Shown: one piece after another, positions 57,001 through 60,000 of the stretch
Numbering within the stretch: position 1 is the first letter of the stretch
Layout of the letters: each line of letters begins with the position of its first letter
From: an uncultured Gammaproteobacteria bacterium
Lineage (GTDB): Bacteria; Pseudomonadota; Gammaproteobacteria; JAURND01
NCBI GenBank assembly: GCA_963777715.1
Contig: CAVZRN010000010.1
Coordinates: forward strand, 22,211 to 86,210
Direction: 5' to 3'
DNA: 64,000 nt
Made by a program: the position numbers

Positions 57001-60000
57001 TATATTTTTTCAATTGTTAGCTTCTTTGTGGCTTTCAACGTCATATTTTTTTTAAAAAAACCTACCATTAAAAAAAATACCATAGAGAATAACTACATTA
57101 TATTTTTTTTGATTACCATTGGATTAATTCTGCTTGCTTATTTATTAATACTCTATGGAACAATAACAAGAAGCTTAAGTCTTCTGCTGTTCAGCATAGC
57201 AATTTTTTATGTTATTTATCTATCCCGCAAAGAAAAACAACCAAACTATATTAGCTTCATTTTTATGCTGCTGTTATGTTGCACACAATACTGGTTGTCT
57301 ACCGCCATACTATATAGTCATTTTACTTTATTTTTATCCGAACATGTTAACAACACAATCGGAAATAAACCAATTTCACCGATGGTTTATTTCATATCTG
57401 ATCCGATCGCAAATATTTTAATGGGCATTATTACCTATAAAGCCTATAAACGTTACAACTTTGCATATTACAAACTCCTATCTGTCGGCGTTTTATTTGT
57501 AGCGCTTGCCTTTGCTTGCATAGTTCTCCCTTCCTATTGGTGTGGATTAGCGAACAAAATAAGTTTCATCTGGCCAATCATAAGCATTTTTATGCTGGGT
57601 TGTTCTGAATTCTTGCTGCAATCTACGCTCTATTCGCAAGTAAATAATTTTGCATCTACCTTAGAAAAGTGTGCCTATTTTATTGGGCTGCTGAGATTTA
57701 CGAGTGTATTTGCCTCATCCATTGCCTTTTATTTAATGTCCGCAACCACGTCTCATAGCCAAGCACCATCTACAAACCCTCACTCAGATTTAACACTATA
57801 TGTTTTCATGATGATTCAAGCATTATTTGCCAGCGCCCTATATTTTGTTGTTTGTCACTATAAACTCAAGGAGAAATAACCATGAGTACGATTGAAATAG
57901 TTACTTGGAAGGATGTAAATAAGTGTATCTCAGAAGTAAATCCACGCCTGGGTGGATTAATTAATGACATAAAAGGTGTGGATAAATTCCATGTTATTCG
58001 AGCCACCTACCCATTTGGGGAAGATATGATTGATAAGGGGGAATTTTTCTTTAACCTTAACGGACAACGTATTCCATTGGAAAGTGATAAGTTGCCAAAG
58101 ACCATCAAGAAGTTGCTAGATTATCATTGGGAGGCTACTCCTTTTGGAATTTTAACTAAAAATTCCATTGAATTTTACATTAATCGTGCCAATCAAATTT
58201 TACCCTCCCGTTTATTATTGCCAGGAAAAACATTTTCATTACTTTCTATTTTTGAAAATCCGGATTTTTCTTATTTTGTGGGCGGCTTGTACTCTACCAA
58301 GGCAGGCTGTCGATCTTTATTAATGCTGCCTAAAATCACCCATGAGCTATCTAGCGCCAGATTGACAAAAAAATATGGAATTACCAGACATCTTCTACCT
58401 AAAACTTTCTCAGATCATTGGCACCTGTTTAATGAAATCGTCCATTCCAGAGCATTCAAAACGTCCTGGGAAGCTGAGATTCACTTCTTCTCTAAAGATT
58501 TTCTTGCCCCTGTTATTGAAACATTAAATTTTCGACATGGGCTGCTTTATTCCGTTTGGCAAGACACAGGGTATCAACGGAATGTATCGATGACCTATAA
58601 CTTTATTTGGTCACTGTTTTTTGATACGCTCCCCATCTCATTAAGAAATGATGCATTCATTATTCAAACAGTTAAACACCTAATCTTAATTGCATTGGCG
58701 GAAGTTCCAGGATTTGTTCCAGAGGACAGTAACATATCTGGGCCAATTACAGAACTAATGGATGTTTTTTTGAATGATTATAAAATTCGCTTTCATTTGC
58801 CGGTATTTATGCGATTGCAACATTATGATGGTCAAAAACCCGCCTACTATTCTCTTTATAAATCTACATTTATTTACGAACCACAAGAAAGAGGGAGTAA
58901 TAAACAAACCATCAATGATCTGATAAAAATACGAAGTGTATTGTATTCCTTTCTTGATTTCATATTGGGTAATCGTTTTGAGCATTCAATAAAAAACACT
59001 GCCTTTTTCAAATCGTTGGCGAACATAGAGTTTGACTTTTATCATCCTGATGGTAATGGAGAAATTAACAATAACATTACCGAGATGGTTGAGGCAGACC
59101 CACGCTTCACTAATTTACCTCACCCAGGCATTTCCAAGTATGGGCTAGCATTTCCCATTCATTCTAATTTTTTCAGGGGCTGTGTCCGAATTCGACCTAA
59201 AAAACTTTCTTCCACTCCACTCCTCGCTTGCGGAAGAGGATGGATGTAATAAAAAGGGAGTATAACCTTTAAAAGGCTAATACTCCCTATTTTGTTCTTA
59301 CTACTAAATAAAAATTTTTATTTGTTAACTATTAAAAAAATCCCTCATTGACAAAGAAGAATAAGCTTCCTCCTCCAAGTCAGCTATTTTTATTACTATC
59401 ATGCAGGTATCTCCTTAAATTTTTATTACTGTTGTGTGAGAAACAAGTTAACTAAAATGTAACCCCACCTTTGTATTTTAACAGATGCAACATACCTTGG
59501 CAAAGACCGAGCTTTTACAGATATTAGCACACTGATAGATATCTTATATAAAAAATCAACAATACATCTTATGCTCCAAGAACTAGCTTTTGCGCTCTTG
59601 CTAACCAGGATATAGAATTAACTGTTATTTTTACTCCCAGATAGTCTAAATTGTTTTTTTCGACAATAAAGTAAAAAATTGCCATGGCATTTACAAAATC
59701 TTGCAAATCTTGCTGAGTAATTAAATCATTGCTAGTCATCCAGCTCACGGTATCAACTGAAGATAACAATCCATTTTCTTTTCGGAATATATTTAGAAAT
59801 ATTTGCTTATATGACGGTGATACTATAATTTCTTGAGTATTAATATAATCAAGTAATTGATTCATCAGCTCAGCAATAAAAACAGACGCTCTAAATTTTA
59901 TGCTTGTACTATCTATTTTTAAATATTTAAGTAAATCAGCACGTTGCATATCGAGTTTTGAATATTCATCTGTGTATATTAAATAGTTTTTTAATAATTT

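What the first reader, a model, noticed from the sequence alone, without database searches (positions are those of the whole stretch)
59325..59402. Second mini-ORF is the terminal cistron before a bidirectional terminator
Seen: the 25-aa ORF has its own GGAG RBS. It ends 29 nt before the hairpin at 59256-59287, which has U-tract potential on both strands. The minus-strand operon would therefore read peptide1-thiS-E1-ycaO-tfuA-peptide2-terminator. Its acidic EEE and aromatic FF content differs from the polar tail of peptide 1, which suggests two distinct products or a substrate plus a regulator.
Basis: inference. Interest (0 to 1): 0.6.

Follow-up and report, generated by a model that had tools for sequence, protein, structure and literature searches.

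The report
Second precursor-peptide gene of thioamide cluster
The 25-codon reading frame is a real, conserved small gene: a second copy of the short peptide that this sulfur-inserting (YcaO/TfuA) gene cluster most likely modifies, with its own promoter and a shared two-way terminator, so it is a new member of a known kind of natural-product cluster.

Summary
ORF 59325-59402(-) encodes MIVIKIADLEEEAYSSLSMRDFFNS. It has an AAGGAG Shine-Dalgarno 8 nt upstream and lies before the hairpin at 59256-59287, which has U-rich tracts on both strands. The gap to the hairpin is 37 nt, not 29.

It is a coding gene. A profile built only from peptides of other organisms' clusters finds it as the top non-seed hit among 136,898 small frames, including the whole own genome (E=1.3e-5). 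Peptide 1 comes second.

The closest relative with DNA in hand that has a gap between tfuA and the 455-aa gene (L067) has an ortholog at the same position. Codon changes against it are mostly third-position (7/4/15; 8 synonymous).

Peptides 1 and 2 are paralogs (consensus I.I.DL..E.Y.SLS.P). They differ mainly in the last 7 residues. This fits two substrates, not a substrate plus a regulator.

Peptide 2 also has its own conserved promoter (TTGCCA-17-TAAAAT, extended -10). So it is the last gene before the terminator, but probably not only an operon cistron.

Modification by YcaO/TfuA using ThiS-COSH is inferred and untested. tfuA is frameshifted twice in this assembly. The post-tfuA position is optional: 2 of 8 clusters have it.

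The parts
59325..59402 (-). pep2: 25-aa small gene MIVIKIADLEEEAYSSLSMRDFFNS, second member of the cluster's precursor-like peptide family
   Evidence: ORF. Ortholog at the same position in L067. Leave-out HMM gives E=1.3e-5. Codon-position differences are 7/4/15.
59411..59416 (-). Shine-Dalgarno AAGGAG, 8 nt before the ATG
   Evidence: Sequence. SD enrichment statistics. GGAG also precedes the orthologs.
59475..59503 (-). Promoter-like site TTGCCA-17-TAAAAT with a TG extended -10 (box CTGTTAAAAT). Predicted 5'UTR is about 65 nt.
   Evidence: 10 of 12 matches, TG. (1 match, 0.04 expected). It is the only conserved upstream segment against L067 (4/2000 shuffles). The box also lies upstream of the L065 peptide and of pep1.
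59247..59304 (.). Bidirectional intrinsic terminator. Hairpin at 59256-59287. U-tract for the - strand at 59247-59255. The A-tract 59288-59304 reads as a U-rich tract on the + strand.
   Evidence: -25.5 kcal/mol, z=-4.4. Sequence. The 455-aa gene stops at 59249.
59569..60897 (-). Long tfuA (TfuA domain plus an all-helical extension of about 270 aa). It is split over three frames by a missing T in the T5 run 60874-60878 and an extra T at 60636.
   Evidence: Pfam hits. Sequence. tblastn of the intact L067 TfuA matches two frames. The fold of the N-terminal part matches TfuA 6xp8.
60894..62063 (-). ycaO; its best model is the thioamidation type
   Evidence: PF02624 at 6e-55. TIGR03266 at 1e-50, below its cutoff.
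62024..63160 (-). E1 adenylyltransferase (ThiF/MoeB/MoeZ-like) with a C-terminal rhodanese domain (CKSGIRS loop)
   Evidence: sequence.
63169..63441 (-). ThiS-like sulfur carrier ending in GG
   Evidence: sequence.
63464..63544 (-). pep1: 26-aa paralog MNNLIKIVGLDNENHTSLSVPNLSNA, with the box CTGTTAACAT at 63596-63605 upstream
57882..59249 (+). Convergent 455-aa protein of unknown fold family. It is a conserved partner of these clusters and of small peptide genes.
   Evidence: No Pfam or NCBIfam hit. Only weak CRP-like barrel matches.
56434..57879 (+). MFS transporter, co-directional with the 455-aa gene; candidate exporter

Best explanation
pep2 is a real, translated small gene. It is a duplicated copy of the cluster's precursor-type peptide (pep1).

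Shown:
- It belongs to a peptide family (consensus x-I-x-I-x-D-L-x-x-E-x-Y-x-S-L-S-x-P) found in eight distinct ThiS/E1/YcaO/long-TfuA/455-aa clusters of Legionellales-like bacteria.
- The family member usually lies just upstream of thiS. In the window and in L067 it lies after tfuA.
- Each copy comes as a cassette of a CTGTTAAAAT-type promoter box, a 5'UTR of about 50-70 nt, a GGAG RBS and a 25-37-codon ORF.
- Here the cassette ends at the bidirectional terminator shared with the convergent 455-aa gene.

Inferred:
- The conserved hydrophobic/acidic N-terminal two-thirds acts as a recognition (leader) segment.
- The YSSLS motif plus the variable 7-residue tail is the part that gets modified.
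- The E1-rhodanese protein loads sulfur onto the ThiS C-terminal GG as a thiocarboxylate.
- TfuA releases sulfide from ThiS-COSH next to YcaO. YcaO activates a backbone amide of the peptide with ATP to form a thioamide.
- The 455-aa protein acts on or binds the same peptide, and the MFS protein exports the product.
- Two precursors with different tails would give two related products from one enzyme set.
For: Coding and conserved:
- L067 has MSNFVIQLSELDGESYSSLSMPDLRN between tfuA and the 455-aa gene, with a GGAG RBS and a following hairpin.
- Against that ortholog there are 8 synonymous, 10 non-synonymous and 4 identical codons. Differences by codon position are 7/4/15.
- An HMM built from six peptides of other loci ranks pep2 first (E=1.3e-5) and pep1 second (6.4e-4) among 136,898 frames. 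The next hit has E=1.7.
- pep2 is pep1's best non-self hit in the six-frame translation of the whole genome.
- In shuffle tests, 0 of 5000 shuffles reach the observed score.
- Further members lie upstream of thiS in L065/66, L068/69, L070, L071 and L077, and upstream of ycaO in L059.

Promoter.

Terminator.

Enzymology context:
- Pfam and NCBIfam assignments.
- The TfuA fold matches 6xp8.
- ThiS ends in GG and the rhodanese loop is present.
- PMC13063428 states that non-sulfidic thioamide-forming YcaOs use a thiocarboxylated ThiS homologue plus the TfuA hydrolase, citing Liu et al. 2021.
Against: - There is no transcript, peptide or mass-spectrometry evidence.
- tfuA is broken twice in this assembly, so the pathway may be dead here, or the assembly may carry indel errors.
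- pep2 has Arg where most family members have the conserved Pro after SLS(M/V).
- No recognition (RRE-like) domain was found. The TfuA extension and the 455-aa protein have no informative structural match.
- The family's most conserved part includes the YSSLS motif, so the leader/core boundary is uncertain.
- The 455-aa family also pairs with other small peptides where YcaO/TfuA are absent. The true modifying enzyme could therefore be that protein.
Confidence: 0.62

Rival explanations
1. The peptide is a real gene, but it is the substrate or partner of the 455-aa protein rather than of YcaO/TfuA. The sulfur relay may serve that protein.
For: - Homologs of the 455-aa protein that lack YcaO/TfuA still have a conserved 23-aa ORF 120-200 nt downstream (L072-L074).
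- Others have a 27-aa ORF followed by thiS-E1 (L081, L086/87).
- In L008 an acidic 37-aa ORF follows the 449-aa homolog on its own strand.
- pep2 lies directly next to the 3' end of the 455-aa gene.
Against: - Every locus that carries a member of the pep1/pep2 family proper also has ycaO and tfuA.
- The peptides next to stand-alone homologs show no detectable sequence similarity to pep2.
- The 455-aa protein has no recognisable catalytic fold.
Confidence: 0.15
2. pep2 is a relic. The cluster is decaying in this genome (tfuA is a pseudogene), so the intact ORF is no longer used.
For: - Two frameshifts in tfuA.
- pep2 has lost the family's conserved Pro.
Against: - One shift is in a T5 homopolymer. 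The MAG has only 67% marker completeness despite long contigs, which fits indel errors in the assembly.
- The pep2 ORF, RBS, promoter and terminator are all intact.
- All other cluster genes are intact.
Confidence: 0.13
3. pep2 is a small regulatory, immunity or signalling peptide rather than a second substrate.
For: - It has its own promoter and terminator, which allows independent expression.
- Arg replaces the conserved Pro.
Against: - It is collinear with pep1 over its full length.
- In L067 the post-tfuA copy is the only family member found, so there it must play the primary role.
- It has no transmembrane or DNA-binding character.
Confidence: 0.07
4. It is a chance ORF or a non-coding RNA. 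The conserved feature would be the RNA or the terminator, not a peptide.
For: - 3% of shuffles of the spacer give such an ORF.
- There is a weak Rfam hit to rli52, far below threshold (28 bits against 70, E=0.54).
Against: - Similarity is at the protein level, with an excess of third-position changes and synonymous changes.
- The frame, length, start and RBS are conserved in eight distinct clusters whose non-coding flanks are otherwise unalignable.
- The leave-out HMM hit is significant.
Confidence: 0.03

Closest known systems
YcaO-TfuA thioamidated RiPP clusters (thioviridamide/thioamitides, thiovarsolins; genome-mined TfuA clusters in Proteobacteria, PMC8120280, PMC6511847)
   Same: - A short precursor-type ORF sits next to an adjacent ycaO-tfuA pair.
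- Relatives share a conserved N-terminal part and a variable C-terminal part.
- A transporter is encoded in the cluster.
   Different: - The peptides are much shorter (25-37 aa) and match no NCBIfam or Pfam peptide family.
- No lanthipeptide-type or other thioamitide tailoring genes were seen.
- The cluster carries its own ThiS and E1-rhodanese, a long TfuA, and an uncharacterised 455-aa partner.
- The host is an uncultured Legionellales-like bacterium.
- No product is known.
Archaeal McrA thioglycine system (YcaO + TfuA, with ThiS-COSH as sulfur donor; Liu et al. 2021 as cited in PMC13063428; PDB 6xp8)
   Same: - It gives the best profile matches for YcaO (TIGR03266) and TfuA (NF033432).
- The TfuA fold matches.
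- The sulfur-delivery logic is the same.
   Different: - The target there is a large enzyme subunit, not a dedicated small peptide gene.
- The scores here are below the equivalog cutoffs.
E. coli YcaO thioamidation of ribosomal protein uL16 (PMC13063428)
   Same: YcaO-dependent backbone thioamidation in Pseudomonadota.
   Different: That system has no TfuA, no dedicated ThiS/E1 and no small substrate gene. The match of this YcaO to the E. coli-type YcaO model is very weak (NF040716, E=4e-7).
Multi-precursor RiPP clusters (for example two-peptide lantibiotics, prochlorosins, cyanobactins; from general knowledge)
   Same: One enzyme set serves several paralogous precursor genes that share a leader and differ in the core.
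   Different: Here the two copies lie at opposite ends of the operon, each with its own promoter box. In the known cases they are usually in tandem.
Bidirectional intrinsic terminators between convergent genes (general knowledge)
   Same: A GC-containing hairpin is flanked by an A-tract and a U-tract, so it can serve both strands.
   Different: Nothing unusual. Function was not tested.

Membership tests
RiPP precursor peptide of a YcaO-TfuA (thioamide) cluster | Short ORF encoded inside or next to the ycaO-tfuA genes | tested here: met
   pep2 starts 166 nt downstream of the tfuA stop, on the same strand.
RiPP precursor peptide of a YcaO-TfuA (thioamide) cluster | Peptide conserved with the cluster across organisms and under purifying selection | tested here: met
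   Eight distinct clusters carry a member. Leave-out HMM gives E=1.3e-5. 8 synonymous against 10 non-synonymous codon changes versus L067.
RiPP precursor peptide of a YcaO-TfuA (thioamide) cluster | Two-part pattern: conserved leader and variable core | tested here: inconclusive
   Alignment A4 shows I.I.DL..E.Y.SLS.P conserved and the last 6-12 residues variable. The conserved block reaches close to the C-terminus, so the boundary is unclear.
RiPP precursor peptide of a YcaO-TfuA (thioamide) cluster | Intact modifying enzymes in the same genome | tested here: inconclusive
   YcaO, ThiS and E1 are intact. tfuA is split by two frameshifts. Whether these are real or assembly errors could not be checked.
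RiPP precursor peptide of a YcaO-TfuA (thioamide) cluster | Peptide is post-translationally thioamidated | not testable with these tools
   Needs mass spectrometry of the expressed peptide.
Thioamitides (thioviridamide class) | Characteristic tailoring genes and sequence similarity to the TvaA-like precursor | tested here: not met
   Neighbouring genes are only MFS, the 455-aa unknown, CsrA and a receiver protein. The peptides hit no family.
Intrinsic bidirectional terminator | Stable hairpin with a U-rich tract 3' on both strands, between convergent genes | tested here: met
   (z=-4.4); sequence; gene ends.
Intrinsic bidirectional terminator | Transcripts from both sides end there | not testable with these tools
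Sigma-70 promoter with extended -10 | -35 and -10 hexamers with 17-nt spacing and a TG motif, conserved in orthologs | tested here: met
   L067 has TTGCCA-17-TAAAAT with TGT.
Sigma-70 promoter with extended -10 | Transcription start about 7 nt downstream | not testable with these tools
   No RNA data.

The most novel reading that the evidence does not exclude
The conserved unit is not YcaO/TfuA but the uncharacterised 455-aa protein plus a small acidic peptide gene, often with ThiS and an E1-rhodanese protein.

Under this reading the 455-aa family, which is multi-copy in these genomes and present on Legionella conjugative plasmids, would be a new class of peptide-modifying enzyme. It might be sulfur-dependent. 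pep1 and pep2 would be its substrates, and YcaO/TfuA would be an optional add-on.
Probability: 0.15. Interest if true: 0.8.

Novelty: new member of a known kind. Interest (0 to 1): 0.45.

Why it matters
This shows that an ORF too short for many gene callers is a conserved gene and probably one of the substrates of a self-contained thioamidation system. That gives a concrete, very small test set for a first YcaO-TfuA natural product from Legionellales-like intracellular bacteria: 25-37-aa peptides plus four or five enzymes.

It also shows that the precursor travels as a promoter-peptide cassette that can sit at either end of the operon. This helps when mining such clusters. Finally, it flags an unknown 455-aa protein family that repeatedly accompanies small peptide genes.

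Tried and rejected
- Rfam scan of 55-64 kb: nothing near threshold. The rli52 hit over the terminator scores 28 bits against a cutoff of 70.
- The simple terminator scan missed the hairpin because the stem is imperfect.
- A global MAFFT alignment of the window and L067 spacers was uninformative. It was replaced by local alignments.
- Overlapping ORFs 59348-59455(+) (35 aa) and 59426-59530(-) (34 aa): no SD and no counterpart in L067. Rejected.
- A search for further family members in the own genome, including next to the three other 455-aa paralogs, found none.
- A recognition domain was sought in the TfuA extension. The AF2 model (pLDDT 78) matches only TfuA 6xp8 over its first ~130 residues. 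The helical extension has no match.
- The 455-aa protein model (pLDDT 88) gave only weak CRP/FNR-like barrel hits (E >= 5e-3, TM <= 0.26) and no function.
- No family peptide was found in L075 or L076. L076 holds only 127 nt upstream of thiS, and L075 starts inside ycaO.
- The third CTGTTAAAAT box, at 32564, lies inside a 1382-aa gene and is taken as chance.
- RNA-seq and read evidence were unavailable.

Full report
**Observation**

On the minus strand, ATG 59402 opens a 25-codon frame (MIVIKIADLEEEAYSSLSMRDFFNS) that ends with TAA at 59325. Only four sense codons precede it in frame. AAGGAG lies at 59416-59411, 8 nt upstream.

The hairpin at 59287-59256 is followed by TTTTTATTA on the minus strand. 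On the plus strand it is followed by TATTTTGTTCTT, and it begins 6 nt after the stop (59249) of the convergent 455-aa gene. With its A- and U-tracts it folds at -25.5 kcal/mol, z=-4.4, and 0 of 200 shuffles fold as well.

The gap from the stop codon to the hairpin is 37 nt, not 29. Otherwise the description is correct.

An ATG ORF of this size with an SD arises in about 3% of shuffles of the 319-nt spacer. AGGAG-type SDs are about tenfold enriched before long ORFs in this genome. The sequence alone is therefore only suggestive.

**Context**

The window is contig C10 of a 2.05-Mb, 25-contig MAG with 67% marker completeness. Its relatives are uncultured Legionellales.

The minus-strand genes are:
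- pep1 (63464-63544);
- a ThiS-like carrier ending in GG;
- an E1 with ThiF and rhodanese domains;
- YcaO;
- a long TfuA.

YcaO and TfuA match the McrA-glycine thioamidation models best. The modelled N-terminal part of TfuA matches the M. acetivorans TfuA structure 6xp8.

In this assembly tfuA is read in three frames. A T is missing in the T5 run 60874-60878, and there is an extra T at 60636. An MFS transporter and a 455-aa protein with no family assignment converge on the same terminator.

**Is pep2 a gene?**

pep2 is the best non-self match of pep1 in the six-frame translation of the whole genome. The two align collinearly from the IKI motif to the C-terminus, 39% identical over 23 residues, and 0 of 5000 shuffles reach that score.

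The closest homologs of the 455-aa protein (65-69% identity) led to orthologous clusters:
- In L067 the spacer between tfuA and the 455-aa gene encodes MSNFVIQLSELDGESYSSLSMPDLRN, with a GGAG RBS and a following 13-bp hairpin.
- In L065/L066 tfuA and the 455-aa gene overlap, so there is no room for a copy. MGTDLIEIVELDSEDYSSLATPGLITQ lies upstream of thiS instead.

Further members lie upstream of thiS in L068/69, L070, L071 and L077, and between the 455-aa gene and ycaO in L059. Alignment A4 gives the consensus x-I-x-I-x-D-L-x-x-E-x-Y-x-S-L-S-x-P.

A profile built from six peptides, none from the window, was searched against 136,898 stop-to-stop frames, including every frame of the own genome. 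pep2 was the top non-seed hit (E=1.3e-5) and pep1 the second (6.4e-4). The next hit had E=1.7.

Against the L067 ortholog, differences by codon position are 7/4/15, with 8 synonymous codon changes among the 12 conserved residues.

Overlapping alternative ORFs have no SD and no counterpart in L067. Rfam finds nothing significant.

I conclude that pep2 is a conserved protein-coding gene and a paralog of pep1. This agrees with an earlier agent's note (e1-3192851). I treated that note as a lead and re-derived the result independently.

**Transcription**

A promoter-like site, TTGCCA-17-TAAAAT with an upstream TG, lies at 59503-59475. It matches 10 of 12 consensus positions. One match was found where 0.04 is expected by chance.

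The best local alignment between the 130 nt upstream of pep2 and of the L067 peptide is exactly this -35 to -10 segment (4 of 2000 shuffles reach it). The box TCTGTTAAAAT also recurs upstream of the L065 peptide. Upstream of pep1 it appears as CTGTTAACAT at 63596-63605.

The tfuA-pep2 spacer shows no significant structure (z=+1.3), so read-through from the operon is not excluded.

pep2 therefore looks like a self-sufficient cassette of promoter, 5'UTR, RBS, ORF and terminator. The cassette has been duplicated or moved between the two ends of the operon.

**Mechanism (inferred)**

Thioamide-forming YcaOs outside sulfidic habitats are reported to use a thiocarboxylated ThiS homologue and the TfuA hydrolase (PMC13063428, citing Liu et al. 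2021). YcaO-TfuA clusters with short precursor ORFs are widespread in Proteobacteria but uncharacterised there (PMC8120280). ycaO and tfuA were also noted on L. pneumophila conjugative elements (PMC3218107).

The likeliest reading has three parts:
- E1-rhodanese makes ThiS-COSH.
- TfuA delivers sulfide to YcaO.
- YcaO thioamidates pep1 and pep2. These share the recognition part and differ in the 7-residue tail (VPNLSNA against MRDFFNS), giving two related products.

None of this chemistry was tested.

**Caveats and rival readings**

- pep2 carries Arg where most members have Pro.
- tfuA may be truly broken.
- No recognition domain was found.
- The 455-aa family is multi-copy, with 4 copies in this genome and 8-9 in relatives. 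It is present on Legionella conjugative plasmids.
- Where YcaO/TfuA are absent, the 455-aa family still accompanies other small ORFs. These are the 23-aa MN(F/L)M(I/L)DLPFMPIDDPL... peptides in L073/L074, the related MNTLISIPMLPSEDPLRAEDIEV in L072, and 27-aa ORFs followed by thiS-E1 in L081 and L086/87.
- The peptide could therefore primarily be a partner of that protein.

**Distribution of the post-tfuA position**

Two of the eight distinct clusters that carry the family have a copy after tfuA: the window and L067. In L065/66, L070, L071 and L077 tfuA abuts or overlaps the neighbouring gene. L068 has a 221-nt gap with no member. By its gene table the P0003 locus also has tfuA and the 455-aa gene overlapping, but no DNA was available for it. 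The position is optional. The family itself was present wherever enough sequence was available.

**Verdict**

The kind of system is known (a YcaO-TfuA RiPP-like cluster with multiple precursors). The peptide family and its 455-aa partner are undescribed.

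Noticed in passing
window 59569-60897 (-): tfuA is read in three frames. One T is missing in the T5 run 60874-60878 and there is an extra T at 60636, for a net change of 0. The intact L067 TfuA aligns at 70% and 45% identity across the two main pieces. Whether this is real decay or an assembly error is undecided.
   Followed up: partly
window 57882-59249 (+); G000 C21:115361-116650, C21:42451-43734, C19:3232-4560: The 455-aa protein belongs to a multi-copy family with no Pfam or NCBIfam model. There are 4 copies here and 8-9 in two relatives. It is also found on Legionella conjugative plasmids and one Francisella plasmid. The AF2 model is confident (pLDDT 88), but only weak CRP-like barrel matches were found.
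   Followed up: partly
L072 +120..191, L073, L074 +200..271 downstream of the 455-aa homolog: Stand-alone 455-aa homologs with no ycaO/tfuA nearby are followed on the same strand by a conserved 23-aa ORF: MNTLISIPMLPSEDPLRAEDIEV, MNLMIDLPFMPIDDPLEAESIAV or MNFMLDLPFMPIDDPLQAEDISV.
   Followed up: no
L081 8359-8442; L086/L087 +134..217 after the 455-aa homolog: Modules of MFS, 455-aa protein, 27-aa ORF, thiS and E1-rhodanese occur with no ycaO/tfuA; in L081 none lies within 5 kb downstream (L086/L087 end inside E1). The ORFs are MKLYSIALNSELAHDFSSCYAAEMLTC and MKTLVDVKFVDLSSCATEALGALEAYI. This suggests the sulfur relay can serve the 455-aa protein directly.
   Followed up: partly
L008 8384-8497 (-); L055 7488-7571 (-): A second small acidic peptide type (MQDD...) occurs in related clusters: MQDDAFELIIDDIDESMIGEDYFDAASMNKIDPDSH after the 449-aa gene, and MQDDLLLDVIFDEDMETAPLGMDKISY before ycaO.
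   Followed up: no
L011 10680-10886 (-); L012 6249-6395 (+) and 5893-6000 (+); L056 6680-6838 (+): A third family, about 48 aa with the motif ...YES(L/F)LGLSGPL..N.E..S.ISLL, lies between the 455-aa homolog and thiS in more distant relatives. L012 has a possible second copy.
   Followed up: no
L055 11643-11751 (-): A pep2-like stretch, LKDEAYSTLGLRISEL, is preceded in another frame by MGLQKVSIE. It lies 560 nt upstream of thiS. It is either a frameshifted family member or a 16-aa TTG-start ORF.
   Followed up: partly
L068 7910-9088, L070 5578-6786: Some orthologous clusters insert an ATP-grasp ligase gene after the 455-aa gene, which hints at extra peptide tailoring.
   Followed up: no
window 55797-56018 (-); G000 C10:173078-173296 and C10:18605-18823: The csrA next to the cluster has two 90-93% identical copies on the same contig and several 53-66% identical paralogs. 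L008 and L063 also have csrA near their clusters, and in L008 T4SS genes too. This suggests the cluster sits on mobile-island DNA.
   Followed up: no
window 59306-59323 (-): A small AT-only palindrome (AAATAAAAATTTTTATTT) lies directly after the pep2 stop codon, ahead of the main terminator hairpin.
   Followed up: no
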